DNA of 64,000 nt from a virus (taxonomy: Duplodnaviria > Heunggongvirae > Uroviricota > Caudoviricetes). The DNA lies in the IMG/VR virus record IMGVR_UViG_3300012346_000380, positions 160,001 through 224,000 of that record; one strand, given 5' to 3'. The translations under genes and the position numbers were made by a program. The notes below the pieces were generated by a model. It searched no databases and was not told where the DNA came from. It saw only the letters and a program-made list of their open reading frames with translations. Shown piece after piece: positions 1,200 to 49,994 of the stretch. Positions within the stretch are counted from its first letter, which is position 1; every line of letters begins with the position of its first letter.

Positions 1200-1224
1200 T
1201 ATGTGGATTTATTTTTTATTTGTT

Positions 1225-1935
1225 TTATATATCACCTTTTCTGATAGCATTAAAAACAACATACTTTAAAATAGGTAAAAGACAATTTTCAAGAGGCATT
1301 TCTCTTTTAACGTCGGCTCTAATACATTGAGTACCAGGATTTAAAACTGTAACCAGGCTTACGTTTTCGCTTAAAGTATGAAGATCATAATTTTCATTTA
1401 AATCATCAAATTCAAATTTTAAATTTTTCCAGTCTTCTTCTATTTTTGAAGGTCGGTTAAAATGGTATGTTAATACTTTTTTATCGTGAGTTATTACGTA
1501 TAAAATAGCGTCTGACCAAATTATTTTTTTAGTAGGAATTGCAGTTAAACTTATAGCGTTTGAGTTAATACGCCATTTATCTCTTAGAAATCGATATAAT
1601 TTTTCTAAGAGTTCAACACTTTCGTCTGAAAGATTTTCTATGATTTGTAGATATTCTGAATTTTCTGGATATTCATATAACAATGACATGTTATCCAAGT
1701 CTAGACCCTTCAAAACTTTCATTCTGTCGTCTAGTATGTTTTTTTCGTATTTGTATTTATATAAATCCTCTAATCTATTTTCTATTTCTATCAAAACATC
1801 ATACAGCTCGTCAGATTTTATCAACGCACTATATTTCTTAAGTGCTGATAAAAGCTTATACTTTTTGTGTTCGTAATCTATAGGTTCTGAGAATAACCAA
1901 TTTGAGTCTAATACATCCATGTGGTATTTATCCAC
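1225..1935 (-). CDS. Hypothetical protein
   Basis: 236-aa ORF in a co-oriented cluster. Confidence 0.7.
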   Translation of the reverse strand: MDKYHMDVLDSNWLFSEPIDYEHKKYKLLSALKKYSALIKSDELYDVLIEIENRLEDLYKYKYEKNILDDRMKVLKGLDLDNMSLLYEYPENSEYLQIIENLSDESVELLEKLYRFLRDKWRINSNAISLTAIPTKKIIWSDAILYVITHDKKVLTYHFNRPSKIEEDWKNLKFEFDDLNENYDLHTLSENVSLVTVLNPGTQCIRADVKREMPLENCLLPILKYVVFNAIRKGDI

Positions 1936-1945
1936 TCACGATCCA

Positions 1946-2551
1946 TTAAATAACTCTACTATAACCTATTTGTTGTTTTTCATAGTTATAATTTGACATA
2001 ATTTTATCCCAGTATTTTTGATATTTTGAATTTTCTGGTTTTAAAATATGTTTAGGTATTTCTACAAAGTATCTGCGAATAGCATCTACTTTTTCAAAGC
2101 TAAATTCTTCACCTTTGTTTTTGAATGCGAAATAAAAATATAATTGTCTTGTGGTACCTTCGAAAGAATCCATAACATTATTAACTTCGTCTAATTCTAT
2201 TTCGAATTCTTCAGACAAAGCTTTAGCTAGTTCAGATAAACAACTTAATTCTTCGCTTAAATGGTGTGATAAAATCTTCTCTCTGCGTTTATTATATTTT
2301 TTACGAACATAATTCAACATATCTTGTTGTGTTTCTTCAGAACATCTATTAAAATTAGGAGTAGCTTTAACTTCTTCCAATTCTGCTTCGTATACAACTT
2401 CTTCTAATTTACATTCTAAATGTAAATGGTTGAATTCAAAATCTCCAGCTTCTATGCGCTGAAGTAATGGGCTTAAACCCTTAAAATAGTATTGTTTCGG
2501 TAATTTGATAGGTGCATAAAAGCGTCTCCACCATGTAAAAGCTCTACTCAT
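1946..2551 (-). CDS. Hypothetical protein
   Basis: 201-aa ORF downstream of an early-type promoter. Confidence 0.7.
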   Translation of the reverse strand: MSRAFTWWRRFYAPIKLPKQYYFKGLSPLLQRIEAGDFEFNHLHLECKLEEVVYEAELEEVKATPNFNRCSEETQQDMLNYVRKKYNKRREKILSHHLSEELSCLSELAKALSEEFEIELDEVNNVMDSFEGTTRQLYFYFAFKNKGEEFSFEKVDAIRRYFVEIPKHILKPENSKYQKYWDKIMSNYNYEKQQIGYSRVI

Positions 2552-2587
2552 ATTATTATATTATAATGTTATGTTATTATGTTATTA

Positions 2588-2628
2588 CAAATATACACAA
2601 AAAAGCCCAAACTAAAAAATCTGGGCTT
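2588..2628 (-). promoter_or_regulatory. Terminator hairpin fused to early (host sigma) promoter; repeated cassette
   Basis: Minus strand AAGCCCAGATTTTTTAGTTTGGGCTTTTTTGTG-TATATTTG; similar copies at ~28347, ~36601, ~52842 and ~62442. Confidence 0.65.
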
Positions 2629-2632
2629 ACTT

Positions 2633-2953
2633 TTATTTTCGTACTTTAACCTTTTCTTTATTAGGTTGAAATATTTTTAATTCGTTTCCTGTGTATTCTA
2701 ATGGATCTACTGTTAATCCCCATTGTAAAATAAACCAGCTTACTTCATTTTCCGCATTTTTAGAACTTAGTTTTAATTCTTGCATAATTCTACGTTTAGC
2801 ATATTCTGCAAATTCTGATTCAGCTGCTTTAGATGTTTTAAATTTAGTAAACCATTTAGGATCATCTATTACATCTTCGTATTTTTTACCGAATGGTTCT
2901 AATTGTTTATTGATGAGCTCTACGAAAAGCTCTCTTTGTTTATCTCTTCTCAT
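2633..2953 (-). CDS. Hypothetical protein
   Basis: 106-aa ORF tightly packed with neighbours. Confidence 0.65.
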   Translation of the reverse strand: MRRDKQRELFVELINKQLEPFGKKYEDVIDDPKWFTKFKTSKAAESEFAEYAKRRIMQELKLSSKNAENEVSWFILQWGLTVDPLEYTGNELKIFQPNKEKVKVRK

Positions 2954-2954
2954 T

Positions 2955-3164
2955 TTAGTTATTTAATAATTCAACTGGTTTAAGAATATCTGAATCTGTG
3001 AGATGGATAAATTTATTAATTTCTAAACTTACCATAACAGTATTGTGTTCTTGATTATTATAATATAATAATACAGTGTCTGGTTTAATTTCACTGTACC
3101 ATTCTAATTTTAGAATATTGTGATACTTTACAACATCTTCTGTATTAATATAAATATAAATCAT
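2955..3164 (-). CDS. Hypothetical protein
   Basis: 69-aa ORF whose start overlaps the clpP stop. Confidence 0.55.
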   Translation of the reverse strand: MIYIYINTEDVVKYHNILKLEWYSEIKPDTVLLYYNNQEHNTVMVSLEINKFIHLTDSDILKPVELLNN

Positions 3165-3850
3165 TATTTTCTAGATTTTGGTTTAACTACTTTGTCAATA
3201 ATACCATATTTAACTGCATCTTCTGCGCTTAACCAAAAATCTCTAGTAGCGTCTTTCATTACAGTATCAGCTGTCTTACCACAATAAGATCCTAAAAGTT
3301 CAAATAGAATTTTGTTAACTTTTTGCCATTCTTTCCAGTCGATTTCTGCGTCTTGAATATTTCCGCTAAATCCACCTGAAGATTGGTGTAACATTGTTGT
3401 TGAAAATCTTAATGAACTTCTTTTACCTTTTGTTCCAGCACCCAATAAAACTGATCCCATTGAAGCTGCCATACCTGTATTTACAGTTGCAATATCAGCA
3501 TTGATATAATCCATAACATCAACCATTGATAGACCTGACTTAACAGAACCACCGGGGGAGTCAATGTGCATCGTAATATCTTCTTTACCTACAGAATCTA
3601 AAAACATTAATTGAGCTTGAACTACAGTTGACATATTGTCATTTACTGGACCAGCAACCCATAAAACTCTTTCCATCATTAATCTAGAAAAAATATCCAT
3701 TTGTACTGCACGTAGTTCACGTTCTTCTAAAATATATGGAGTCATCGATGCATTAACACCTTTTTGGAATGAATCTAAATTTGATGAAGATAATCCAAAT
3801 TCTGATTTAGCGTATCTTTGAAATTCTTGTTCTTTTGGAATGTATATCAT
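3164..3850 (-). CDS. clpP: ATP-dependent Clp protease proteolytic subunit
   Basis: MDIFSRLMMER, IDSPGGSV, catalytic Ser in GMAASMGS, His in MLHQ, RDFWLSAEDAVKYGIID. Confidence 0.95.
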   Translation of the reverse strand: MIYIPKEQEFQRYAKSEFGLSSSNLDSFQKGVNASMTPYILEERELRAVQMDIFSRLMMERVLWVAGPVNDNMSTVVQAQLMFLDSVGKEDITMHIDSPGGSVKSGLSMVDVMDYINADIATVNTGMAASMGSVLLGAGTKGKRSSLRFSTTMLHQSSGGFSGNIQDAEIDWKEWQKVNKILFELLGSYCGKTADTVMKDATRDFWLSAEDAVKYGIIDKVVKPKSRK

Positions 3851-3851
3851 T

Positions 3852-4160
3852 TTAAATATTTTGTTTAATTTGTTTAATCATGTCGCAAGTTTCATATTCT
3901 TCTAATCCTTCGAAATATTCCATTGCTTTACCTAGAGATTTTGACCAATTGTCACCTATATTCTCTAGTATTAAAGTACTTTTGTTATTATAATCATCTA
4001 TAATATAACACAGTACACTTTCTGTTTCAATCAACTCAATACGATTTAAAATATATTGAACTATTCTTCTATAAAACAGATCTACATCGTGCATGGCGTC
4101 GTGTACGTCTTCTATAGAATCATTAGATTGCTTGACCCTGAGAGTTGGTATGTTTGCCAT
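3852..4160 (-). CDS. Hypothetical protein with UvrB/C (UVR)-like C-terminal motif
   Basis: C-terminal AMEYFEGLEEYETCDMIKQI resembles the UVR coiled-coil (EEYE.A..I). Confidence 0.5.
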   Translation of the reverse strand: MANIPTLRVKQSNDSIEDVHDAMHDVDLFYRRIVQYILNRIELIETESVLCYIIDDYNNKSTLILENIGDNWSKSLGKAMEYFEGLEEYETCDMIKQIKQNI

Positions 4161-5028
4161 ATACTTTTATATTAAGATATTCTGATAATAACTCTCTGTA
4201 TTGTTCTTGCGTAGCATCTGATTCAACTAGAGTATTTACATTTTTAATAAAATCTAAACCTTTAACGCATGTTACTTGTTCTAATTTATTATTAACATGT
4301 TGGTGATAGTAGAATAATGGTTTTTTCAAGATCATTTCATATTGAATAGGTGCAGATCCATTAGATTTAATTTTGTCTGCTAATTCAAAATGATGTTGGT
4401 AGAAATGAATATTATCGGCGAAATGTGTGTATGTGCCTAATTCTAAATTTGTGTATGCTTCTTCTTTTAACCAAAGATACATGTGTTGGTGCACGAATGC
4501 AAAGAATGGTGCATCGAATGTAAGACCATAGAAAATATCGTTTGATCTCATTTGAACTTTCATATTCAATTTGTTATCTCTGATAAAGAAATTTAAGTAC
4601 ATTGTACAAACAAAATCTTTATTACCTTCAAATTGATATTTAGGTTGATTTAAGAATGCAATAGCCTGTCTTGTATTTTTATCTTTCTTTAAAGAATCCA
4701 AACACCATGCTAATTGATCATTGAATAATAAGGCACCGTAATTTGAATTGATTTCATTAGTACCTGGATTTGTAATGTTTTTCCAAAAATTAGAAAACTT
4801 ATTGATGTAATCGATATTGGTATCTTTTTGTAAGTACCAAGCTAATTCGCCAGCAAAATATTTAAAGTTAAATTTACGATCTTCGAAATTTGCAATAGGT
4901 CTAGTCGAATCTACGTCTATTTGGCCATAAATTAATTCTTTGACTTTAAGATCTCTAGGTTGTGATATCGAACCTTTGCGTTCGATATCACGTATTAAAG
5001 ATATAAATGTTTCTGAGAAGTTATTCAT
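4123..5028 (-). CDS. Thymidylate-synthase-fold enzyme, probable dCMP hydroxymethylase/methylase
   Basis: NSNYG, RQAI, KDFVCT (catalytic Cys), MRSNDIFYGLTFD with Asp at the ThyA Asn177 position, HFY. Confidence 0.8.
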   Translation of the reverse strand: MNNFSETFISLIRDIERKGSISQPRDLKVKELIYGQIDVDSTRPIANFEDRKFNFKYFAGELAWYLQKDTNIDYINKFSNFWKNITNPGTNEINSNYGALLFNDQLAWCLDSLKKDKNTRQAIAFLNQPKYQFEGNKDFVCTMYLNFFIRDNKLNMKVQMRSNDIFYGLTFDAPFFAFVHQHMYLWLKEEAYTNLELGTYTHFADNIHFYQHHFELADKIKSNGSAPIQYEMILKKPLFYYHQHVNNKLEQVTCVKGLDFIKNVNTLVESDATQEQYRELLSEYLNIKVYGKHTNSQGQAI

Positions 5029-5066
5029 ATAATATTGTATTAATAATGTATTTTAATCTTATACTA

Positions 5067-7076
5067 CTATTTTAGAGAAAGTTTATCAGATCCTTTAATA
5101 TGATTGATTGTATAAACTTTATCTCCAACTTTCATTGTATTATCTAAAATATTATCTGACAATAAATCTTCTACATAATTTTGAATTGCTCTTTTAATTG
5201 GTCTAGCACCAAATTGTTGATCGTAACCGGCTTGAGCTAAAAACACTTTTGATTGCTTTGTAAATTTGATGTTATATCCTTGATCGTACATTCTTTCGAT
5301 AACATCCATCAATTCTAAATCTACGATTGCAATAACGTCCTCTTCTTTTAAATGATCGAATAGAATAATATCATCCATTCTATTTAAAAATTCAGGTGCA
5401 AATTTATTCTTAAGTTCTTTTCTAACGATAGCTTCAACTTTGGCTTTGTTTGTACCAATATTTGTATCACTATCAAATCCAATGCCTGTTCCAAATTCTG
5501 CCACTTTACGTGCACCAATATTAGACGTCATGATTATAATTGTATTAGTAAAATCTACAGTACGTCCTAAAGAATCTGTTAATCTACCATCGTCTAAAAC
5601 TTGCAATAAAGTATTAAATGTATCTGGGTGTGCTTTTTCAATTTCATCAAATAAAACAACAGAATATGGTTTACGTCTTACTGCTTCAGTTAATTGTCCA
5701 CCTTCTTCATAACCAACATAACCTGGAGGTGGTCCGACTAAACGAGATACGTTGAATTTTTCTTGGTATTCACTCATATCTAATCTGATCATAGCATCTT
5801 CAGAGCCATAATAATATCTTGCAAGAGCTTTAACTGTTTCAGTTTTACCAACACCAGTAGGTCCTAAAAACATGAATGACCCGATTGGTTTTCTAGAGCT
5901 AGAAACTCCAGTTCTAGATCTTCTAACAACTCTACATAAAGCATCTACAGCTTCGTCTTGTCCAATAATAAGTTTCTTTAATTCGTCTGCCATTTTCATG
6001 ATGATTTTCTTTTCATCACCATTTAATCTTGTTACAGGAATTCCAGTTATATCAGCTATAACTCCGGCTACATCTTCTTCAGTTACCTTTGTTTTTTTGT
6101 CTCTGATGTTTTGTTCCCACTCTTTGATTTTTGCATCAATTTCATTTTTCTTATTGATTTCAGCATCTCTGTAGAATGCAGCCTGTTCATAATCTTGTTT
6201 GGTTACAGCTTCTACTTTAGCTAATCTAGCATCATCAACTTCTTTTTCTAATTTCTTAACGAATTCAGGAACTTTGATTTCTTGCATGTGAATTTTTGCA
6301 CCAGCTTCATCCATAACATCGATAGCTTTGTCCGGTAATTCTCTTTGAGTAATATAACGTTCACTTAAATTAACACATGCATATAAAGCATCTTCTGTAT
6401 AAACTACAGCATGATGATCTTCATATTTGTCTTTGATTCTTTTTAAGATCTCAACAGTATCTTCACATGACGGTGGATCGATGAAAACTTCTTGGAAACG
6501 ACGCGTTAATGCTCCATCGCTTTCAATATTTTCTCTATATTCGTCTAGTGTAGTTGCACCGATACATTGTACTTGTCCACGTGCCAATGCTGGCTTAAGA
6601 ATATTAGAAGCATCTAAAGATCCTCCAGCTCCACCTGCACCAACTAAAGTATGAATCTCATCGATGAATAGAATAATATCAGTGTTGTCTTTTAATTCCT
6701 CAACAATATTTTTCATTCTCTCTTCAAATTCACCTCTGTATTTTGTACCTGCTACAATATTATTGATATTAAGTGAAATGATTCTTTTATTAAAAAGAGT
6801 TCTAGCTACTTTTTTATCTATAATTCTCTGAGCGATAGCTTCTACTAATGCGGTTTTACCAACACCCGGGTCCCCTAAAATAATAGGATTGTTTTTCTTT
6901 CTACGAGAAAGAATTTGACATATACGGTGTACTTCTTTTTCACGACCAATAATAGCATCTAATTTACCTTCTGATGCCATTTGTGTTAAGTCTTCGCCAA
7001 ATTGATCCAACAACGTAGTTGACTTTGGTTTCTTTTTATTGCCGCCTCTACCGAAACTTTCTTCAATGTTATCCAT
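5067..7076 (-). CDS. clpC: ClpC/ClpA-type AAA+ unfoldase lacking the N-terminal Clp-repeat domain
   Basis: Two Walker A motifs (GDPGVGKT, GPTGVGKT), IDEIH, RRFQ, UVR middle domain, GYVGYEEGG pore loop, GARPIKR; start moved to MDNIEE. Confidence 0.9.
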   Translation of the reverse strand: MDNIEESFGRGGNKKKPKSTTLLDQFGEDLTQMASEGKLDAIIGREKEVHRICQILSRRKKNNPIILGDPGVGKTALVEAIAQRIIDKKVARTLFNKRIISLNINNIVAGTKYRGEFEERMKNIVEELKDNTDIILFIDEIHTLVGAGGAGGSLDASNILKPALARGQVQCIGATTLDEYRENIESDGALTRRFQEVFIDPPSCEDTVEILKRIKDKYEDHHAVVYTEDALYACVNLSERYITQRELPDKAIDVMDEAGAKIHMQEIKVPEFVKKLEKEVDDARLAKVEAVTKQDYEQAAFYRDAEINKKNEIDAKIKEWEQNIRDKKTKVTEEDVAGVIADITGIPVTRLNGDEKKIIMKMADELKKLIIGQDEAVDALCRVVRRSRTGVSSSRKPIGSFMFLGPTGVGKTETVKALARYYYGSEDAMIRLDMSEYQEKFNVSRLVGPPPGYVGYEEGGQLTEAVRRKPYSVVLFDEIEKAHPDTFNTLLQVLDDGRLTDSLGRTVDFTNTIIIMTSNIGARKVAEFGTGIGFDSDTNIGTNKAKVEAIVRKELKNKFAPEFLNRMDDIILFDHLKEEDVIAIVDLELMDVIERMYDQGYNIKFTKQSKVFLAQAGYDQQFGARPIKRAIQNYVEDLLSDNILDNTMKVGDKVYTINHIKGSDKLSLK

Positions 7077-7089
7077 TCTTATTTGTTTA

Positions 7090-7545
7090 TTATTTTGATA
7101 AATTATCTGCCGCATTCACAGCAGGCAAAAGGTCTGGTTTAATTCTTGGTTTTATTCCCATAGATTGTACATATCCAGTAGCTGCGGCAACTAATTTATT
7201 AGAAGCATGCTTTTCATTGCTATTTAGATCAAGATCTATGTTATGTATATTTATACCATTTTCGCGGAGATACATTGCTAGAGAAACTGATTTTTCAACT
7301 TCATTCCACAATTTTGTCCACATATCATTAATTCTGTCAATCTTTTCTCTTTGAAACAAGACATGACATCCAGCTTCTCCGATATGGATCACTACTGTTG
7401 TAACATAAGTTGTATATACGCCTTTATTATGAGAATCACATCCGATATAAATTCTTAAATTTGAATTTTTATTGTTCTTGATGTATTCTTTTAAATATGA
7501 TGCGATTTCAACTTTTTCATACCCTGTTAATTTTTGAAATAGCAT
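7090..7545 (-). CDS. RNase H-like YkuK (DUF458) family protein
   Basis: IYIGCDSH, LWNEVEKS, IDLDLN, AADNL motifs; start moved to MLFQK to avoid overlap. Confidence 0.7.
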   Translation of the reverse strand: MLFQKLTGYEKVEIASYLKEYIKNNKNSNLRIYIGCDSHNKGVYTTYVTTVVIHIGEAGCHVLFQREKIDRINDMWTKLWNEVEKSVSLAMYLRENGINIHNIDLDLNSNEKHASNKLVAAATGYVQSMGIKPRIKPDLLPAVNAADNLSK

Positions 7546-7546
7546 C

Positions 7547-8215
7547 TTAGAAATTTGTTGATTGATCTGTTTTATATTTTTCCGTGAATTCACGAATTTT
7601 GTCTCTAGCTTCTTCTGCTGTATCAACGATTCTAAAAAGGTTTAAATCTTTATCGCTAATCATTCCATTTTCAACAGCAACTTCTTTTAACCATTCGATT
7701 AGGCCTGTCCAATATTCTTTACCAACTAAAACGATTGGATATTTTATATTGTGACCGCATTGAGCAAGAGTAACTGCTTCAAAGAATTCATCTAAAGTTC
7801 CAAGACCACCTGGAAATACTGCAAATCCTTGTGAATATTTAAGGAACATTACCTTTCTTGTAAAGAAATATCTACATTCAACACCAAGATCTACATATTG
7901 GTTCATACCAGCTTCAAATGGTAATTCAATTCCAATTCCAATAGATTTACCACCAACTTCATTTGCGCCCTGATTAGCAGCTTGCATGATTCCAGGACCA
8001 CCTCCAGTAATTACGCCAAATCCTTCTCTACTTATAAGAGCTCCGAATTTTCTGGCTTCTTCATACCATTTACTACCAACTTTAGTTCTAGCACTACCGA
8101 AAACCGAAACACAAGATCCTAATTCATTAAATGTATCAAATCCTTTTGTGAATTCCCCTTGAATCCTCAAGATTTGCCATGCATCTTCTGCTTTTTGTTC
8201 ATTTTTACTTATCAT
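7547..8215 (-). CDS. LOG family nucleotide phosphoribohydrolase (TIGR00730-like)
   Basis: VFGSAR, TGGGPGIM, RKVMF and PGGLGTLDE signature. Confidence 0.9.
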   Translation of the reverse strand: MISKNEQKAEDAWQILRIQGEFTKGFDTFNELGSCVSVFGSARTKVGSKWYEEARKFGALISREGFGVITGGGPGIMQAANQGANEVGGKSIGIGIELPFEAGMNQYVDLGVECRYFFTRKVMFLKYSQGFAVFPGGLGTLDEFFEAVTLAQCGHNIKYPIVLVGKEYWTGLIEWLKEVAVENGMISDKDLNLFRIVDTAEEARDKIREFTEKYKTDQSTNF

Positions 8216-8436
8216 TATTCTTGTGTTACTTTACCTAAGTTAGTAAGAGACCTTTGCACGCATGCATTACACAAAACTCTTACAGAATTTTCACTACATT
8301 TTACATAAACATCACAAGCCCCATTTTCTGGCGCAAAAGCTGCATATTTACTAGTAGCTGGATTTGAATTTTGACAAAGCATCGCATGTTGTCCATCGAT
8401 TTTCTTAGTCTTATAATTGTATGTTAACTCTGCCAT
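8215..8436 (-). CDS. Small Cys-rich hypothetical protein (possible Zn-binding)
   Basis: 73 aa with five Cys including CNAC. Confidence 0.55.
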   Translation of the reverse strand: MAELTYNYKTKKIDGQHAMLCQNSNPATSKYAAFAPENGACDVYVKCSENSVRVLCNACVQRSLTNLGKVTQE

Positions 8437-8437
8437 T

Positions 8438-8698
8438 TTATTTTTTTATTTTAGTAGTTTCGAATTTGTTTTTAATTAATTTGTTTAGAGCAGATCCATG
8501 AGATTCTGATAAAACAAACTCAGTGTAAGTTTCAGCGTCTACGTCTTTATATGAATAGTTGGTACCATTCTTAAAAGTTACTATTAGTATTTTCGAATCT
8601 ACGATATACATAGTCGAGTCTAACGTAGAACTATCATACTCATTTAATTTAACTAGACCCATTATAGGATCGTGATTTACATTTGCATTTTTAATCAT
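8438..8698 (-). CDS. KTSC domain protein
   Basis: SS.L....Y......LIVTFKNG..YSYKDV....Y..F..SESHG pattern. Confidence 0.8.
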   Translation of the reverse strand: MIKNANVNHDPIMGLVKLNEYDSSTLDSTMYIVDSKILIVTFKNGTNYSYKDVDAETYTEFVLSESHGSALNKLIKNKFETTKIKK

Positions 8699-9150
8699 AG
8701 TACATTTATTTTAAGGTTATATTTAAAGATTCGCATTTTGTTTCTTGTTTTTAATCTGGGTGCTAATATAAAACAAATCTTTGACACTAAAAAATCTTTT
8801 AGCAATTATTTTACTATTTATGGGGAAAAATCTTAGCTGGGGGATTTAATTCGCAGGGTTTCAAGCCCTTAGGAAAATTACAGTACTTTCTTTTTTATAC
8901 CATTATAATATATTAGGTCTCTGTCTACTCAGGAAGCCCTTGCAGACCCACATACTTTATTAAATAACGGTGATTTCGCGGCCCTACTCAAATGAGTCTA
9001 AGGACACATATACTTTTTAAAATTGAATGAGAATGAGATTTGGCGCAATGCAACCCCCTTAATAGACCTTACCTTTAGAAGAAACCCATACTTATACAAT
9101 CTGGGCCCAGAAAGGTTTCAAAAAGTTTCAATTATTTTATACTCTTTTTT

Positions 9151-9702
9151 CTAACGCTTAAAGTTTGGTAGAGTAAATTTAGGTATCTGAATACTTGGAG
9201 TAGGCTTAAAGGCCGGCGCGCTTTGCTTTGGCATGTCTGAGACGTTCATGTTGGGCTTAGTCATTTTGGTTTCCGGTCTTTCAGGTCCTTTGGTCCCATC
9301 AGCCACCTTTGGGTTTATACTACTCTGTTTATCTGTAGGGCTTGGCGTTTCTCCTGCGGGTGTTTGACTACTCGAGCCCTTCACTTTGTCCGACATATAA
9401 CTCTGAGCCTTTTTTGATAAAATATCAGAGAAGCCGGTGGTTTCCCGGTTGCCTTCTGGCATACTAACAGGCTCAGGCCCTTTGGCTCCTTTGAGTCCTT
9501 CGGCGCCTTTAGTAACCGGCGGAGTTTTGATCGAGTCAGTTTGGGTACTGATAGGTTTGGCGGCGCCTTTAAGCTCAGAGGACTGTTTACCCACATTTGC
9601 GTTAAAACCTTTAGACGTACCAGATTGGGTTAGTCCTGACGCATCGATTGCGTTGGCGTTCTGATTGGTACCTTTGGCGGCGTTTTGAGCTAAATCTTCC
9701 AT
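9151..9702 (-). CDS. Low-complexity Pro/Thr/Ser/Lys-rich protein
   Basis: 183-aa ORF directly downstream of the AATATATAG late-type motif (9706-9714). Confidence 0.6.
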   Translation of the reverse strand: MEDLAQNAAKGTNQNANAIDASGLTQSGTSKGFNANVGKQSSELKGAAKPISTQTDSIKTPPVTKGAEGLKGAKGPEPVSMPEGNRETTGFSDILSKKAQSYMSDKVKGSSSQTPAGETPSPTDKQSSINPKVADGTKGPERPETKMTKPNMNVSDMPKQSAPAFKPTPSIQIPKFTLPNFKR

Positions 9703-9719
9703 GGTCTATATATTAGGGC

Positions 9720-10440
9720 CCGGAGGCGCGTATTTCCCGGGCCCCAGTTTTTTGGGCCCGGGTTAGTTCGTGTTTTTAGATTTATTTCGGTGGTCTTTTT
9801 CAGGGTACTGAGAGGACCTCGGAGTGACTCTAAGGGCCCTGTCAGGCCCAAAAAGCCGCTTTGACCCAGCTGTGGCACTCAATGCGCTTTGGCTAAAGTC
9901 GAAATTCACTATTACTAATTATTAATTAAGCCATGACCTTTACATATCATCATATAAAAAAGTGGTCTTAATCGCGAATTCCCGTAAAACTCGCAATGTC
10001 CCCGGGCGCATGCGTACCCAGAGCACTTTAAGTCCCAAAGTGCTAATTCGCGTTTTGCGCTAGGCTTCATATTACACTTATGAGCCTCAGAGCCCGTGTC
10101 TACTCTAGCTCGGGTGTGCATGCACTTGCAGGTGTTTACTGTAGCCCTAGACAGTAAATTGCGAAATAGGCTTGCAGGTACGCCGGCTGCGCTGCTGGTA
10201 AGCCTAGAGCCTGTTTAGCGCCGGAGCTACTGGTAGTACTGCTAGATGGCTAGTAGCGCTAGTTAGCTAGTTTAACCCAGTAAGCTTTATGCTAATTAGC
10301 TCCGCAGAGCTGTTTGGCGCCTATAGCTCCCAAGAGCTTGCCAGTAAGCTCTCCAGGAAGCTTGCCAGGAGTTAGTCCCCAGAGCTTACCTGGAGAAGCT
10401 TCCTGGAGCTAAAAATAGTTTGAAAATAAAGGCTTAAATA
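9720..10440. other. GC-rich, palindrome-rich non-coding tract at the divergent strand switch
   Basis: Clearly higher GC than the flanks, dense AGCT/CTAG, perfect 13-bp inverted repeat at 10351-10363/10396-10408, no credible ORF. Confidence 0.6.
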
Positions 10441-10499
10441 TTTTTTATTGTCAACTATTTGTGGTATATTTACATATAACATTAAAACAAACATCCATT

Positions 10500-10943
10500 A
10501 TGAAAAACTCATTTTTTAACTCAGAGAGAATTAGCGCAGTAGACTTTATCCAAGGTCGTCAAGGTCAGTATAGAGCTATTGTTAAAGTGCAAGCTGGATT
10601 TATGACTACTGTAGATGATTTAGGTATCGCTAGTAATTGGGAGTCAGGTGCTCGTTGGAAGACGGCTCTATCTGTATTTAAGTCATTTAAAAAAGGTGCC
10701 TTACAGACTATTGAATTTAAAGCTGATGGTACTAATACTTGGTTAACTGTCTTTGCTAGAGTTGGTAATAAAGTTAAATTAATGGATGAGTCTATGTTTA
10801 TGACTATGTGTGTTGGCGATATTAACCAAGATTGGTCTAATACTAACTTATATAGTCAAACTAATTATTCTTTGGCTGGCGCGAAAACTTGGGCTGATCT
10901 TGCCTTTGTAGCAAATGAAACAAAGGAGCTTGAGTTGGTATAA
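10500..10943 (+). CDS. Early hypothetical protein (copy 1)
   Basis: ATG after the TAAAACAAACATCCATT leader and early promoter; 147 aa. Confidence 0.75.
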   Translation: MKNSFFNSERISAVDFIQGRQGQYRAIVKVQAGFMTTVDDLGIASNWESGARWKTALSVFKSFKKGALQTIEFKADGTNTWLTVFARVGNKVKLMDESMFMTMCVGDINQDWSNTNLYSQTNYSLAGAKTWADLAFVANETKELELV

Positions 10944-10966
10944 TATCTACAACAAAACACAAATAT

Positions 10967-11200
10967 ATGAACAAAAGTTCAAATCGTGGTAGCTATAATA
11001 AATTAAGCTACATCCAAAAGGTCTCTATTATAAATCGCAAATTGCGTATTGGAGATATCGCTAATGTATCAGTAGCCACTGGTTACTCCGCCACTCACGT
11101 CTCAGACGTTGTTGCTGGTAAATACTTTAACGACCGCATCATTAACGAAGCTTATGATGTTACCAGAGGTCGTATTAGCAATGCAGTCAAATTAGGCTAG
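10967..11200 (+). CDS. Small putative helix-turn-helix protein (copy 1)
   Basis: IGDIANVSVATGYSATHVSDVVAG resembles an HTH; basic N-terminus. Confidence 0.6.
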   Translation: MNKSSNRGSYNKLSYIQKVSIINRKLRIGDIANVSVATGYSATHVSDVVAGKYFNDRIINEAYDVTRGRISNAVKLG

Positions 11201-11225
11201 ACCTAGACTGTTCTTAGATTTCTTA

Positions 11226-11260
11226 TAGGGGTACTCTTTTAGAGTGCTCCTATTTTTTTT
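11226..11260 (+). terminator. Rho-independent terminator (second copy at 12271-12305)
   Basis: ATAGGGGTACTC-TTTTA-GAGTGCTCCTAT followed by a T run. Confidence 0.75.
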
Positions 11261-11330
11261 GAAAATAAGTGCTTAAAAGTTTTTTATTGTCAAAAGATTG
11301 TCGTATATTAGCTTATGAAACAAAAAACAA

Positions 11331-11430
11331 CAGGTATGACTTAGATGACTGACATTCAAAACAGAGGTAAGACCTCAACAGGGGCGGTCCTTTCAAAAGA
11401 AGGAGGAAGAGTAGACTCCAACCTGCTTTT
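11331..11430 (+). ncRNA. Candidate small structured early RNA (second copy at 12376-12475)
   Basis: Own early promoter (TATATTAG at 11304); CAGGT/ACCTG closing stem around three hairpins, then a T run; no sizeable ORF. Confidence 0.35.
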
Positions 11431-11486
11431 TATTTTTTTTAAAAAGGAATTGTTCGTAACTTTATGAAAAATAATTGATAAAAGGC

Positions 11487-11517
11487 TTTGGGTTGTCAAC
11501 TATTTGTGGTATATTTA
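11487..11517 (+). promoter_or_regulatory. Bacteroidota-type early promoter TTTG-N19-TATATTTA
   Basis: Close to the Bacteroidota primary-sigma -33 TTTG / -7 TAnnTTTG consensus; the -7 box recurs at 10465, 11304, 12349, 12555, 12781, 13233, 14959, 15214 (+) and about ten minus-strand sites. Confidence 0.75.
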
Positions 11518-11544
11518 CATATAACATTAAAACAAACATCCATT

Positions 11545-11988
11545 ATGAAAAACTCATTTTTTAACTCAGAGAGAATTAGCGCAGTAGACTTTATCCAAGG
11601 TCGTCAAGGTCAGTATAGAGCTATTGTTAAAGTGCAAGCTGGATTTATGACTACTGTAGATGATTTAGGTATCGCTAGTAATTGGGAGTCAGGTGCTCGT
11701 TGGAAGACGGCTCTATCTGTATTTAAGTCATTTAAAAAAGGTGCCTTACAGACTATTGAATTTAAAGCTGATGGTACTAATACTTGGTTAACTGTCTTTG
11801 CTAGAGTTGGTAATAAAGTTAAATTAATGGATGAGTCTATGTTTATGACTATGTGTGTTGGCGATATTAACCAAGATTGGTCTAATACTAACTTATATAG
11901 TCAAACTAATTATTCTTTGGCTGGCGCGAAAACTTGGGCTGATCTTGCCTTTGTAGCAAATGAAACAAAGGAGCTTGAGTTGGTATAA
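11545..11988 (+). CDS. Early hypothetical protein (copy 2)
   Basis: Identical to 10500-10943. Confidence 0.75.
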   Translation: MKNSFFNSERISAVDFIQGRQGQYRAIVKVQAGFMTTVDDLGIASNWESGARWKTALSVFKSFKKGALQTIEFKADGTNTWLTVFARVGNKVKLMDESMFMTMCVGDINQDWSNTNLYSQTNYSLAGAKTWADLAFVANETKELELV

Positions 11989-12011
11989 TATCTACAACAA
12001 AACACAAATAT

Positions 12012-12245
12012 ATGAACAAAAGTTCAAATCGTGGTAGCTATAATAAATTAAGCTACATCCAAAAGGTCTCTATTATAAATCGCAAATTGCGTATTGGAGA
12101 TATCGCTAATGTATCAGTAGCCACTGGTTACTCCGCCACTCACGTCTCAGACGTTGTTGCTGGTAAATACTTTAACGACCGCATCATTAACGAAGCTTAT
12201 GATGTTACCAGAGGTCGTATTAGCAATGCAGTCAAATTAGGCTAG
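12012..12245 (+). CDS. Small putative HTH protein (copy 2)
   Basis: Identical to 10967-11200. Confidence 0.6.
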   Translation: MNKSSNRGSYNKLSYIQKVSIINRKLRIGDIANVSVATGYSATHVSDVVAGKYFNDRIINEAYDVTRGRISNAVKLG

Positions 12246-12589
12246 ACCTAGACTGTTCTTAGATTTCTTATAGGGGTACTCTTTTAGAGTGCTCCTATTT
12301 TTTTTGAAAATAAGTGCTTAAAAGTTTTTTATTGTCAAAAGATTGTCGTATATTAGCTTATGAAACAAAAAACAACAGGTATGACTTAGATGACTGACAT
12401 TCAAAACAGAGGTAAGACCTCAACAGGGGCGGTCCTTTCAAAAGAAGGAGGAAGAGTAGACTCCAACCTGCTTTTTATTTTTTTTAAAAAGGAATTGTTC
12501 GTAACTTTATGAAAAATAATTGATAAAAGGCTTTGGGTTGTCAACTATTTGTGGTATATTTACATATAACATTAAAACAAACACCTATT

Positions 12590-12742
12590 ATGAAAAAAGA
12601 GTTATTAGAATATTGTTACAAAAATCAAAAGGAATATGTTTACGAAACAAACCAAAGAGCATTTGATTGCTTAATTGAGTTAGTAGAGAGTGGTACAGTA
12701 TCTTCTTTTAAAGAGTTGTCAGAGTACGGAATGGAGTACTAA
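12590..12742 (+). CDS. Small early hypothetical protein
   Basis: MKKELLEY..., 50 aa, after the promoter/leader cassette. Confidence 0.6.
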   Translation: MKKELLEYCYKNQKEYVYETNQRAFDCLIELVESGTVSSFKELSEYGMEY

Positions 12743-12815
12743 AAACTTAATCAAAAGTTACTATTCCCAGACAAGGTTCTTATATTTACATATAACATTA
12801 AAACAAACATCCATT

Positions 12816-13169
12816 ATGAACATATCTCTTTCTCCTTCTGAAATTCAAGTTATTAAAAATGCATTAGTTGACTATAAAGAGGCTCTGGTAGGTCAAGGTA
12901 CTCAATACTCAGTTATCTCTGCCCTTCTTATTACTATTGCAGAAAAAGAGGCTAAGGAATCTAATAAGGCGCCTAAGGTTATTGCTAATAAAGAATGGAT
13001 GTTTAACTTCACTACGGGAGGTTGGAATACAGTATGGGCTAAGACTAAGCGTGGAGCTATAGCTCAAGCTGCTAAGGAATATAAAAACTCAAACTTAGTC
13101 CCTAATCCTAATTCATTTAGAGCATCTACTCCATCTGATATGAAAGCGGCATTAAGTTCTTTCTATTAA
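12816..13169 (+). CDS. Early hypothetical protein
   Basis: MNISLS..., 117 aa, after the promoter/leader cassette. Confidence 0.7.
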   Translation: MNISLSPSEIQVIKNALVDYKEALVGQGTQYSVISALLITIAEKEAKESNKAPKVIANKEWMFNFTTGGWNTVWAKTKRGAIAQAAKEYKNSNLVPNPNSFRASTPSDMKAALSSFY

Positions 13170-48740: not shown

Positions 48741-48771
48741 AAAAAAAGCTCAATTCTAAGAACTGAGCTTT
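48741..48771 (-). terminator. Terminator closing the tRNA/ncRNA operon
   Basis: Minus strand AAAGCTCAGTTC-TTA-GAATTGAGCTTTTTTT. Confidence 0.75.
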
Positions 48772-48775
48772 AGTG

Positions 48776-48848
<73 letters not shown>

Positions 48849-48850
48849 AT

Positions 48851-48920
48851 TTGGGTAGGTCAGACGCGTTCTGCCTACCGAGACCTTGTCGTTGACTTTC
48901 GTCAGAGCGGACCAAGACAC
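48851..48920 (-). ncRNA. Candidate structured RNA in the tRNA-Gly leader
   Basis: Minus CTTGGTCCG...TGAC-GAAA-GTCA...CGACAAG, then the GGTAGGCAG/CTGACCTACC hairpin. Confidence 0.4.
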
Positions 48921-48935
48921 TTTTTAATAATAAGC

Positions 48936-49070
48936 AGGATGGGCTTTTATACGTGCTCTACCAACTGAGCTACTCTGAACGTGCCACTTAAGGCTGTGTT
49001 CAAAGGCCGGATTCGAACCGACGACCACGAGGTTAACAGCCTAGTTTTTATGGATTGCTGGAACCATCCT
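48936..49070 (-). ncRNA. CAGCAA cassette A: circularly permuted tRNA-Asn(GTT)-like RNA
   Basis: AGGATGG/CCATCCT closing stem; order is anticodon arm (CT GTT AA), T arm (GTCGG TTCGAAT CCGGC), acceptor 3' strand, 17-nt linker, acceptor 5' strand, D arm. Confidence 0.8.
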
Positions 49071-49086
49071 TGTATAATTAATAAAC

Positions 49087-49143
49087 GGAATACACATTGG
49101 TTTGAGTAAAAGTCAAAGTTTGTAAATTTGCTGTAGGTATTCC
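49087..49143 (-). ncRNA. CAGCAA cassette B: isolated tRNA-Lys(TTT)-like anticodon stem-loop
   Basis: GGAATAC/GTATTCC stem, CTA-CAGCAA, TTTGA-CTTTTAC-TCAAA. Confidence 0.65.
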
Positions 49144-49153
49144 AATAATTTTC

Positions 49154-49293
49154 AGGTTTCTATTGTTTTGACCAGCGCGTCTACCAATTTCGCCACACTC
49201 CAATTTGATTTAAATTTCGTTGGAGAGGTAGGACTCGAACCTACACGTCTTTCGACACCGGTTTCTTATAGAATTAATTGCTGTAAGAAACCT
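49154..49293 (-). ncRNA. CAGCAA cassette C: circularly permuted tRNA-Leu-like RNA
   Basis: AGGTTTC/GAAACCT stem; ACCGG, long variable arm GTC-GAAA-GAC, GTAGG TTCGAGT CCTAC, CTCTCCA, linker, TGGAGTG, Leu-type D arm GGCGAAATTGGTAGACGC, CTGGT. Confidence 0.8.
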
Positions 49294-49302
49294 TTAATGT
49301 TT

Positions 49303-49467
49303 TTATTTTACAGTCGTTGTATCAACTGTAACAGTGTCTACTTGTGCAGAATCAACCTGAACTGCTGTAGAATCAGCTGTTTCAGTTTTTGAAGTTGCTC
49401 CATTACCACAAGAAGCGATTGAGATTGTTGCTACGATAGCTGCGATTGCTAAAAATACTTTTTTCAT
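49303..49467 (-). CDS. Small Bacteroidota-type lipoprotein (54 aa; not in the ORF track)
   Basis: MKKVFLAIAAIVATISIAS-C-GNG lipobox; DS/DT-rich tail. Confidence 0.75.
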   Translation of the reverse strand: MKKVFLAIAAIVATISIASCGNGATSKTETADSTAVQVDSAQVDTVTVDTTTVK

Positions 49468-49536: not shown

Positions 49537-49713
49537 TTAAGCCTCTTTGTTTTTCTCAGAAACATCAACTCTTACTGCTTGAGCTAAAGCTTTAATATCT
49601 TGCATTGCTTTACGAACTCTGGTTCCAGCTGCTTTGTTTCCTTTTTCGAAAAATTTAGTTGCGTCTTCTTTGATTGAGTTAAGAATCTCTTCGATCTGAT
49701 TTAAATTTTGCAT
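49537..49713 (-). CDS. Histone H1-like (Hc1-family) nucleoid protein (58 aa; not in the ORF track)
   Basis: Read manually: ...KEDATKFFEKGNKAAGTRVRKAMQDIKALAQAVR..., with the KF.EKGNKAAG.R.RK signature. Confidence 0.8.
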   Translation of the reverse strand: MQNLNQIEEILNSIKEDATKFFEKGNKAAGTRVRKAMQDIKALAQAVRVDVSEKNKEA

Positions 49714-49786: not shown

Positions 49787-49787
49787 G

Positions 49788-49861
49788 TGGAGATGACAGG
49801 AATCGAACCTGCGACCCTCTGCGTGCAAGGCAGATGCTCTAGCCAACTGAGCTACATCCCC
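49788..49861 (-). tRNA. tRNA-Ala (TGC)
   Basis: GGGGATG/CATCTCC acceptor with G3:U70, TCTGC-CTTGCAC-GCAGA anticodon arm, GGTTCGATT T loop. Confidence 0.95.
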
Positions 49862-49938
49862 AAGAGAGTTAGGACCTGAGACTTCTGCTATCTAGAATTT
49901 CTGCTGCTCCGTCCATACTCTTAGTCTTTTAAAAAAAC

Positions 49939-49994
49939 AGGATGCTATGTTTTGCTTTTCCATATAAAGTTTTTAAATTTGCTGGAAGCATCCT
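49939..49994 (-). ncRNA. CAGCAA cassette D: short payload with a weak hairpin
   Basis: AGGATGC/GCATCCT stem, TTC-CAGCAA, ATTTAAAAAC spacer like cassette B, CAAAACATA 3' linker like cassette C. Confidence 0.6.

What the first reader, a model, noticed from the sequence alone, without database searches (positions are those of the whole stretch)
49087..49143. Minimal tRNA-Lys(UUU) anticodon stem-loop displayed on the scaffold: candidate anticodon-nuclease decoy
Seen: a perfect 5-bp stem and 7-nt loop, TTTGA-CT TTT AC-TCAAA, with canonical Y32-U33-anticodon-A37 geometry and no other tRNA parts. Established: tRNA-Lys(UUU) is the target of PrrC and of PARIS AriB. Inference: a decoy or competitive inhibitor RNA, or a donor of anticodon loops. 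Cassette D has a similar size and spacer, but its hairpin (CTTT-ATATGGA-AAAG) is less convincing.
Basis: partly seen in the sequence, partly recalled or inferred. Interest (0 to 1): 0.75.

Follow-up and report, generated by a model that had tools for sequence, protein, structure and literature searches.

The report
Phage RNA displaying lysine-tRNA anticodon arm
A 256-kb phage encodes a 58-base RNA that carries only the anticodon hairpin of lysine tRNA on a conserved "handle" shared with the partner RNAs of a Ro60-like phage protein. The same design recurs in many phages, so it is probably a bait for proteins that recognise that hairpin, such as bacterial tRNA-cutting defence enzymes.

Summary
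On the minus strand, 49143-49086 is a 58-nt cassette. It has a 7-bp closing stem, CUA-CAGCAA, and an inner hairpin (49117-49101) with a 5-bp stem and the 7-nt loop CUUUUAC.

Alone the hairpin is weak, and it is not significant as a fold. Comparison shows it is selected:
- The 17 nt are invariant in five orthologues whose flanks and handle vary.
- Other phages carry CUUUUAA on at least seven different complementary stems.
- Sister cassettes carry the exact anticodon loops of Tyr, Asn, Ser(UGA) and Arg(UCU) tRNAs.
- 7 of 39 cassette clusters have such a hairpin, against 0.11 expected.

The handle marks an RNA family encoded beside a DUF2828/DUF7788 protein whose model matches Ro60 over its whole length. 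The phage also encodes an Rnl1/kinase/phosphoesterase tRNA-repair set.

My best reading is a Y-RNA-like RNA that docks on the Ro60-like protein and displays a tRNA-Lys anticodon arm as bait. The most likely target is a host anticodon nuclease. That function is inferred, not tested, and there are no expression data.

I found no description in the literature. Earlier agents of this scan noted the same design on other phage DNA.

The parts
49086..49143 (-). Cassette B, the finding: a 58-nt CAGCAA-handle RNA with a tRNA-Lys anticodon-arm payload
   Evidence: Sequence. Covariance model R1 scores it 48.2 bits, E 3e-10 in the genome. Positional orthologues lie between cassettes A and C in related phages.
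49137..49143 (-). Handle, 5' strand (GGAAUAC)
   Evidence: Pairs with 49087-49093. Six of 7 handle pairs show changes on both sides across 54 family members (the members were chosen for pairing).
49128..49136 (-). Conserved single-stranded motif CUA-CAGCAA next to the 5' handle strand
   Evidence: U9 and CAGCAA are invariant in alignment A2. The same motif defines Rfam RF01414, which gives only weak hits here.
49101..49117 (-). Anticodon-arm mimic: 5-bp stem UUUGA/UCAAA and 7-nt loop CUUUUAC (loop 49106-49112, 'anticodon' UUU 49108-49110)
   Evidence: 17/17 identical in five orthologues. The A38 version is the genuine anticodon arm of tRNA-Lys(UUU) in 103 bacterial genomes. The loop CUUUUAC occurs in a tRNA-Lys gene of a related phage.
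49087..49093 (-). Handle, 3' strand (GUAUUCC), followed by the conserved G at 49086
   Evidence: C63 and G65 are invariant in A2.
49154..49293 (-). Cassette A: same handle, with a circularly permuted tRNA-Leu(UAG)-like body as payload
   Evidence: Handle GGUUUC/GAAACC. Its variable arm is identical to that of the phage's tRNA-Leu(tag).
48936..49070 (-). Cassette C: same handle, with a tRNA-like body and a CUGUUAA (Asn) loop
   Evidence: Rfam YrlA scores 34.5 bits, below the gathering score of 69. Handle found.
49938..49994 (-). Cassette D: minimal handle RNA, upstream of tRNA-Ala
   Evidence: R1 61.1 bits. RF01414 30.2 bits.
48775..48848 (-). tRNA-Gly(GCC), at the end of the presumed A-B-C transcript
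   Evidence: ARAGORN and Rfam.
48745..48771 (-). Terminator-like hairpin closing the unit

Best explanation
Cassette B is a small non-coding RNA of about 58 nt. It belongs to the 'CAGCAA-handle' family, which I read as the Y-RNA-like partners of a phage Ro60-fold protein (DUF2828+DUF7788, genome 12758-14185, outside the window).

Proposed steps:
1. It is transcribed on the minus strand with cassettes A and C and tRNA-Gly. It is probably cut out by the enzymes that process the neighbouring tRNAs (inferred).
2. Its 7-bp closing stem and the single-stranded CUA-CAGCAA motif form the handle that docks on the Ro60-like protein. This is inferred from gene-RNA adjacency in many phages.
3. Its variable module is a 17-nt copy of the anticodon arm of tRNA-Lys(UUU), in the C38 form also found in a related phage's tRNA-Lys (shown).
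4. The particle therefore presents a bare anticodon arm as bait or competitive ligand for a factor that reads tRNA-Lys anticodon loops. The most likely factor is a host anticodon nuclease used in anti-phage defence, so that real tRNA-Lys is spared or the nuclease is held on the Ro-like particle (inferred).

Layered confidence: family member with a selected tRNA-Lys anticodon-arm mimic, about 0.85. Docks on the Ro60-like protein, about 0.6. Nuclease bait, about 0.35-0.4. The single figure given for this explanation refers to the whole chain including the bait step.
For: Shown:
- The hairpin and handle are at the stated coordinates.
- The hairpin is invariant in five orthologues with diverged flanks.
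- The Lys loop sits on at least seven different complementary stems and in many different handles.
- Other cassettes carry the exact loops of Tyr, Asn, Ser(UGA) and Arg(UCU) tRNAs.
- The enrichment over shuffles is strong.
- In a scan that left the three anticodon bases free, 7 of 8 matches with a perfect handle had the hairpin, against 2 of 107 without a handle.

Link to the protein:
- Handle RNAs lie directly downstream of the DUF2828/DUF7788 gene in most of 80 loci.
- They lie directly upstream of it in 4 of 11 contigs retrieved by the RNA motif alone.
- They also follow it in Felix O1.
- The protein model (pLDDT 77) matches Ro60/Rsr and phage phiLo Ro60 over its full length; the top 13 PDB hits have E from 5e-8 to 6e-5.

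Context:
- The phage encodes a T4 Rnl1-type ligase, a second RNA ligase, a P-loop kinase and a phosphoesterase. This is the enzyme set that reverses anticodon-nuclease cuts in T4 (established knowledge; review PMC7824862).
- AriB recognises the anticodon stem-loop of tRNA-Lys (PMC11464382).
- A Felix O1-type Ro60-like protein (Bas63 gp130) counters the Ppl defence (bioRxiv 10.1101/2024.10.10.617714).
- PrrC cleaves anticodon stem-loop analogues in vitro (own knowledge, not checked here).
Against:
- Binding to the Ro60-like protein is inferred only from the shared handle. B lies 196 kb from that gene.
- The hairpin is thermodynamically marginal.
- Several anticodon nucleases prefer modified anticodon loops, which a 58-nt RNA may lack (own knowledge).
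- Bas63 gp130 worked against Ppl from a plasmid without phage RNAs, so anti-defence activity of the protein does not require such RNAs.
- The host and its nucleases are unknown.
- The phage already carries its own tRNA-Lys and repair enzymes.
- The loop is the phage-type C38 variant rather than the common bacterial A38 form. This fits a non-cleavable inhibitor but weakens the idea of a simple copy of the host target.
Confidence: 0.4

Rival explanations
1. Adaptor rather than decoy. As Y RNA tethers Ro60 to PNPase, the anticodon arm would recruit a tRNA-binding enzyme to the Ro60-like particle, or hold it there. Candidates are lysyl-tRNA synthetase, an anticodon-loop modification enzyme, or the phage's own kinase/ligase repair enzymes.
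For: Y RNAs act as tethers, and YrlA is handled by tRNA enzymes (PMC4201824). phiLo Ro60 with its Yrl RNAs assembles with host PNPase (PMC12135203). The repair genes lie about 5 kb from the Ro-like operon. Sister cassettes carry whole tRNA-like bodies.
Against: The payloads span tRNAs read by unrelated enzymes (Lys, Tyr, Asn, Ser, Arg). Seryl-tRNA synthetase does not read the anticodon (own knowledge). No partner has been identified.
Confidence: 0.25
2. Damage sensor. The bait is meant to be cut, and cleavage of the displayed loop changes the particle or produces an RNA end that switches on a phage response such as repair.
For: tRNA fragments signal to the Rtc repair operon, which also encodes Rsr and YrlA (PMC7790460, listed). 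The phage has repair enzymes.
Against: No regulator or signalling domain is linked to the cassettes. The C38 variant could equally be a form that resists cutting.
Confidence: 0.1
3. Processing intermediate or tRNA-part donor. The handle would be a cut-and-join signal, as in permuted or split tRNA genes, and B would supply or regulate anticodon arms.
For: Cassettes A and C are circularly permuted tRNA-like bodies in the same handle. The phage has two RNA ligases.
Against: Minimal cassettes with no hairpin at all use the same handle. B holds no other tRNA part. The handle is conserved next to a Ro60-fold gene even in phages with no permuted tRNA body nearby. RtcB is absent.
Confidence: 0.05
4. 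The hairpin is a chance feature or a decaying remnant with no role of its own. Only the handle matters.
For: Its folding energy is weak and single-sequence significance is absent. Many family members have unstructured interiors.
Against: The 17 nt are invariant while the flanks vary. The stems covary under a constant loop. The loops are exact anticodon loops far more often than chance allows.
Confidence: 0.03

Closest known systems
Bacterial and phage Y RNAs of the YrlA type bound by Ro60/Rsr (Rfam RF02553; Chen et al. 2014, PMC4201824; phiLo Ro60-Yrl, PMC12135203)
   Same: - It is a small RNA whose 5' and 3' ends pair.
- It has a variable module that mimics tRNA.
- The family is encoded beside a ring-shaped Ro60-fold protein with a vWA domain.
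- It is present in phages.
   Different: - The protein is DUF2828/DUF7788, which the TROVE profile does not detect.
- The handle motif is CAGCAA, not the YrlA Ro-binding helix or the GNCGAA motif.
- B has no T arm, D arm or acceptor, only an exact anticodon arm, which is the one part YrlA lacks.
- RF02553 does not match B.
Class I RNAs of dictyostelid amoebae (Rfam RF01414; Kjellin et al. 2021, PMC7919456)
   Same: - It is about 60 nt long.
- It has a short covarying stem joining the ends.
- It has a conserved ..UUACAGCAA motif just after the 5' strand.
- Its interior is variable and A-rich.
- Cassette D and most family members show the conserved AAG start and CUGU end.
   Different: - It is phage-encoded.
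- B scores only 19 bits and D 30.2 bits, against a gathering score of 41.5.
- B ends CCGU rather than CUGU.
- The known protein partner of Class I RNA is an RRM protein (Rnp1A), not a Ro60-like protein.
- No anticodon-arm payload is described for Class I RNAs.
- Homology is not shown.
Phage-encoded tRNAs that neutralise tRNA-cutting defences (T5 tRNA-Lys against PARIS, PMC11464382; T5 tRNA-Tyr against retron Eco7, cited there)
   Same: - Both are phage RNAs built on the anticodon stem-loop of tRNA-Lys or tRNA-Tyr.
- The anticodon-arm sequence decides the interaction with the nuclease.
- Both sit inside phage tRNA arrays.
   Different: - Those are complete, functional tRNAs that replace the cut host tRNA.
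- B cannot be charged or decode. It could act only by binding.
T4 Pnkp + Rnl1 repair of PrrC-cut tRNA-Lys
   Same: The presumed target is the same, namely damage to the tRNA-Lys anticodon loop. This phage carries the matching enzyme types.
   Different: That system is enzymatic repair after the cut. B is an RNA mimic that would act before or instead of the cut.

Membership tests
CAGCAA-handle RNAs next to DUF2828/DUF7788 genes (not in Rfam; model R1 built here) | A 6-7 bp stem joins the 5' and 3' ends; its structure is conserved but its sequence is not | tested here: met
   GGAAUAC pairs with GUAUUCC. Six of 7 pairs covary across 54 members (the members were selected for pairing).
CAGCAA-handle RNAs next to DUF2828/DUF7788 genes (not in Rfam; model R1 built here) | N-U-N-CAGCAA directly after the 5' strand, and a conserved C-N-G at the 3' end | tested here: met
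   B has CUA-CAGCAA and ..C-C-G. These columns are invariant in A2. R1 scores 48.2 bits.
CAGCAA-handle RNAs next to DUF2828/DUF7788 genes (not in Rfam; model R1 built here) | The genome also encodes the Ro60-fold DUF2828/DUF7788 protein, with family members adjacent to it | tested here: met
   P0001 lies at genome 12758-14185 with cassettes E and F directly downstream. B itself is 196 kb away, in a tRNA/RNA cluster.
Y RNA / YrlA (RF02553) | Matches the curated covariance model, including the Ro-binding helix | tested here: not met
   There is no RF02553 match over B even at E up to 10. Neighbouring cassette C reaches 34.5 bits against a gathering score of 69.
Y RNA / YrlA (RF02553) | A tRNA-like domain with T arm, D arm and acceptor-like stem | tested here: not met
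   B holds only a 17-nt anticodon arm.
Y RNA / YrlA (RF02553) | Partner protein is a TROVE-domain Ro60 | tested here: inconclusive
   The Pfam TROVE profile finds nothing in the genome, but the model of P0001 matches Ro60 structures over its full length.
Y RNA / YrlA (RF02553) | Physically bound by the Ro60 protein | not testable with these tools
   This needs immunoprecipitation or a gel-shift assay.
Dictyostelid Class I RNA (RF01414) | Reaches the Rfam gathering score | tested here: not met
   B scores 19 bits, A 22.1 and D 30.2, against 41.5.
Dictyostelid Class I RNA (RF01414) | About 60 nt, terminal stem, 11-nt motif with U3, C6, C9, A10 and A11 conserved, CUGU 3' end | tested here: inconclusive
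   Length, stem and the CAGCAA part are met. B ends CCGU, whereas D ends CUGU. The design is the same; common descent is not shown.
tRNA (RF00005) | Cloverleaf with acceptor, D, anticodon and T arms | tested here: not met
   ARAGORN and Rfam find nothing at B.
tRNA-Lys(UUU) anticodon arm (as a mimic) | 5-bp stem; 7-nt loop with C32, U33, UUU, A37; A31-U39 closing pair | tested here: met
   The sequence shows these features. The A38 form of the same 17-mer lies inside tRNA-Lys(UUU) genes in 103 of 117 bacterial matches. The loop CUUUUAC is present in a related phage's tRNA-Lys.
Anti-defence RNA decoy of an anticodon nuclease | Binds or is cut by the nuclease and relieves defence | not testable with these tools
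   No host, nuclease or assay is available here.

The most novel reading that the evidence does not exclude
Phages use a modular 'bait display' particle. A Ro60-fold DUF2828 protein holds interchangeable small RNAs by a common handle, and each RNA presents the bare anticodon arm of a tRNA that host defence nucleases attack (Lys, Tyr, Asn, Ser, Arg). The particle would either soak up or report those nucleases.

The handle is built like that of dictyostelid Class I RNAs. If this is shared ancestry, it would give those orphan eukaryotic RNAs a candidate protein partner and function.
Probability: 0.3. Interest if true: 0.9.

Novelty: new variant of a known kind. Interest (0 to 1): 0.8.

Why it matters
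The purpose of the tRNA-like parts of bacterial Y RNAs has been unclear since 2014. Here the mimicry is reduced to one defined element, an exact anticodon arm whose identity changes from RNA to RNA. This points to a reader of anticodon loops as the partner and makes the question testable with short synthetic RNAs.

If the bait idea holds, it adds an RNA-based counter to tRNA-cutting defences (PrrC, RloC, PARIS, retron Eco7) alongside replacement tRNAs and repair enzymes. It would also assign a role to a Ro60-like protein family found in 710 cultured phage records. One member of that family is already reported to counter a defence system.

Tried and rejected
I did not pursue it by other means.
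- The Pfam TROVE profile gave no hit in the genome. A sequence search of P0001 against PDB gave only spurious repeat-protein hits. Only the fold search showed the Ro60 likeness.
- RtcB is absent from the genome.
- A DNA similarity search of the region against cultured phages returned only tRNA matches.
- No Rfam family reaches its gathering score over any cassette, or over the long handle RNA F.
- Felix O1 has four handle RNAs, but none carries an anticodon-arm payload. The model coliphage group therefore does not offer this payload.
- The protein atlas gave only viral DUF2828 clusters, so I could not test whether dictyostelids encode the protein.
- The literature holds nothing on DUF2828 with RNAs, nothing on anticodon-arm decoys, and no mechanism for Ppl.
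- I considered that non-tRNA bacterial copies of the 17-mer might be chromosomal cassettes. None has a handle.
- I rejected the chance-hairpin reading and the working-tRNA reading; see Rival explanations.

Full report
**What is there.** The window is part of a complete 256,444-bp phage genome with terminal repeats and 32% G+C. All features discussed lie on the minus strand.

Positions 49143-49086 read as follows:
- a 7-nt strand GGAAUAC
- CUA
- CAGCAA
- a 10-nt A-rich spacer
- the hairpin UUUGA-CUUUUAC-UCAAA (49117-49101)
- a 7-nt spacer
- the complementary strand GUAUUCC
- a final G

ARAGORN and Rfam find tRNA-Gly (48775-48848) and tRNA-Ala (49787-49861) but no tRNA at this place.

On its own the element is unimpressive. 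It folds at -3.7 kcal/mol with z = -0.77, and the inner hairpin is worth about -0.7 kcal/mol. The case therefore rests on comparison.

**The scaffold is a family handle.** Four elements in the window share the same layout: A 49154-49293, B 49086-49143, C 48936-49070 and D 49938-49994. Two more lie at genome 12685-12740 (E) and about 12428-12680 (F). Each has a closing stem, three bases, CAGCAA, a variable interior, the complementary strand and a G.

A and C hold circularly permuted tRNA-like bodies. C gives a sub-threshold YrlA match of 34.5 bits against a gathering score of 69. A carries the variable arm of the phage's own tRNA-Leu(UAG). B, D and E are minimal, at 56-59 nt.

E and F follow directly after a 475-residue gene with Pfam domains DUF2828 and DUF7788. 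The TROVE profile does not detect this protein. However, its AlphaFold model (pLDDT 77) matches Ro60 structures over the whole chain. The top 13 PDB hits are all Ro60/Rsr, including Deinococcus Rsr, Xenopus and human Ro60 and the Ro60 of Thermus phage phiLo, with E from 5e-8 to 6e-5.

**The RNA and the protein travel together.**
- Eighty IMG/VR loci encode relatives of the protein, and nearly all have a minimal handle RNA right after the gene. The closing stem differs in sequence but always pairs. The members were picked for pairing, so only the covariation counts as evidence, not the percentage paired.
- A covariance model of the handle (R1) finds 1-7 copies in 29 of 32 related phage records.
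- Contigs retrieved only by an RNA motif carry the protein gene 35-40 nt from a handle RNA in 4 of 11 cases, although these are fragments.
- The protein family occurs in 710 cultured phage records.
- In Felix O1 the gene is again followed by handle RNAs between the first tRNA genes.

**The inner hairpin is selected and is an anticodon arm.** Positional orthologues of B lie between A and C in relatives. Across five B-type cassettes the 17-nt hairpin is identical, while the spacers and even the handle differ.

I sorted 84 distinct model hits by their best inner hairpin. This revealed a sub-class with a 5-bp stem and a 7-nt loop starting 9-11 nt after CAGCAA, with loops of the form CU-NNN-A-N:
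- CUUUUAA on stems UUCAA/UUGAA, UUUGA/UCAAA, UCAAA/UUUGA and UCUA/UGGA
- CUUUUAC (the B group)
- CUGUAAA and CUGUAAU
- CUGUUAA
- CUUGAAA
- CUUUAAC
- CUAUAAA

Four of the ten distinct loops are letter for letter the anticodon loops of this phage's own tRNA-Lys, Tyr, Asn and Ser(UGA). P is about 8.5e-9 by base composition, or 0.004 even when CU...A. is taken as given.

Seven of 39 interior clusters have such a hairpin, against 0.11 in dinucleotide shuffles, with a maximum of 1 in 300 shuffles. The stems covary: 4 of 5 pairs change on both sides. These sequences were selected as hairpins, so that count is only supporting.

An independent scan of IMG/VR required the handle motif, the A31-U39 pair and CU...A. 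but left the anticodon free. Their loops were Lys in five (new stems and handles), Arg(UCU) in one and Ser(UGA) in one. Of 107 matches without a handle, only 2 had a hairpin.

The A38 version of B's 17-mer is the genuine anticodon arm of tRNA-Lys(UUU) in 103 of 117 matches in bacterial genomes, including Saprospiraceae and other Bacteroidota. The C38 version was never inside a bacterial tRNA, in 0 of 5 matches. A related phage does have a tRNA-Lys(UUU) gene with the loop CUUUUAC. B therefore copies a phage-type tRNA-Lys anticodon arm.

**Setting.** The cassettes sit inside tRNA arrays on the tRNA strand, often within 5-10 nt of tRNA genes. In the window, A-B-C, a structured spacer and tRNA-Gly end at a terminator-like hairpin at 48771-48745. 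Release by tRNA-processing enzymes is thus plausible but not shown.

About 5 kb downstream of the Ro60-like operon the phage encodes four enzymes:
- a calcineurin-type phosphoesterase
- a P-loop kinase
- a T4 Rnl1-type RNA ligase
- a second RNA ligase

This is the enzyme set that heals and seals anticodon-nuclease cuts (established for T4; reviewed for jumbo phages in PMC7824862). This phage evidently meets attacks on tRNA.

**Mechanism.** By analogy with Ro60-Y RNA particles, the handle would dock the RNA on the Ro60-like ring and the variable module would engage a second factor. In those particles the terminal stem binds Ro60 and the rest of the RNA tethers other proteins (PMC4201824, PMC12135203).

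Here the module is an exact anticodon arm, so the second factor should be a reader of anticodon loops. Several points favour a host anticodon nuclease:
- tRNA-Lys is the classic target of PrrC (own knowledge) and of PARIS AriB, which recognises the anticodon stem-loop (PMC11464382).
- tRNA-Tyr is the target of retron Eco7, as cited in that paper.
- Phages are known to answer with variant tRNAs.
- A Felix O1-type member of this protein family (Bas63 gp130) counters the Ppl defence.

Against this:
- That protein acted without phage RNAs.
- Nothing is known of the host here.
- The hairpin is weak and would lack tRNA modifications unless it is modified.
- I have no expression data.

I put the bait-for-nuclease reading at about 0.35-0.4. 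An adaptor role for another tRNA-binding enzyme is at about 0.25. The sensor and processing-donor readings rank lower.

**Comparison with known families.** B is not a YrlA: it gives no model match and has no T arm, D arm or acceptor. Its partner is not a TROVE-profile protein. It works like a Y RNA but fails the membership tests.

Its handle is built like dictyostelid Class I RNAs, which are about 60 nt with a covarying terminal stem, a ..UUACAGCAA motif and an AAG start and CUGU end (PMC7919456). It scores below the Rfam threshold, however, and descent is unproven.

I found no paper describing DUF2828-associated RNAs or anticodon-arm decoys.

Earlier agents of this scan reported the family, and anticodon-arm payloads, on other phage genomes. 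Those notes agree with my results, but I do not count them as evidence.

**Verdict.** The decoy function is plausible and testable but unproven.

Noticed in passing
Genome 4018-7632, minus strand (outside the window; locus L303:4018-7632): An RNA end-healing and sealing cluster: a Metallophos phosphoesterase, an AAA_33 P-loop kinase, a T4 Rnl1-type ligase (PF09511), and an Rnl2-type ligase with a PHA02142 OB domain. It lies about 5 kb downstream of the Ro60-like operon.
   Followed up: partly
Genome about 12428-12680, minus strand (L001:4429-4681): Cassette F is a handle RNA of about 250 nt (GGAUCGG-UA-CAGCAA ... CGAUCCC-G) followed by a terminator. It has a structured interior and no Rfam match. 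Long forms also follow the gene in more distant relatives such as L050, L061 and L079.
   Followed up: partly
window 49154-49293, minus strand: In cassette A the 5' handle strand GGUUUC can pair either with the distant 3' strand GAAACC (49156-49161) or with a nearby GAAACC inside the tRNA-Leu-derived part. The single-sequence fold prefers the nearby one. This could be an alternative-pairing switch.
   Followed up: no
window 48851-48920, minus strand: A structured spacer with two hairpins lies between cassette C and tRNA-Gly and ends at the tRNA 5' end. It has no Rfam match.
   Followed up: no
L156:1501-1562 (minus) and L179:536-594 (minus): Two odd payloads. One is a Tyr-like arm with an 8-nt loop, CUUGUAAA. 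The other has the loop CUUUAAC, whose 'anticodon' UUA would read the stop codon UAA.
   Followed up: no
L133, L137, L142, L175 (records G030, G024, G029, G023): In a lineage whose Ro60-like protein is 48-49% identical, a D-type cassette lies 35-40 nt upstream of the gene. It carries the Ser(UGA) loop CUUGAAA or, after one base change, an alternative 4-bp/4-nt hairpin.
   Followed up: partly
window 49537-49713 and 49303-49467, minus strand: Two small ORFs lie between the two RNA units: a 58-aa lysine-rich, histone H1/Hc1-like protein and a 54-aa lipoprotein-like peptide with a signal sequence and Cys. I read these from the translated sequence only.
   Followed up: no
L163 (record G032, 1-13000) and L164 (G022): Related phages pack 35 tRNA genes with 7 handle RNAs into 13 kb, and 29 tRNA genes with 4 handle RNAs into 5.4 kb. 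L164 has two Tyr-loop cassettes but no tRNA-Tyr gene within that stretch.
   Followed up: no
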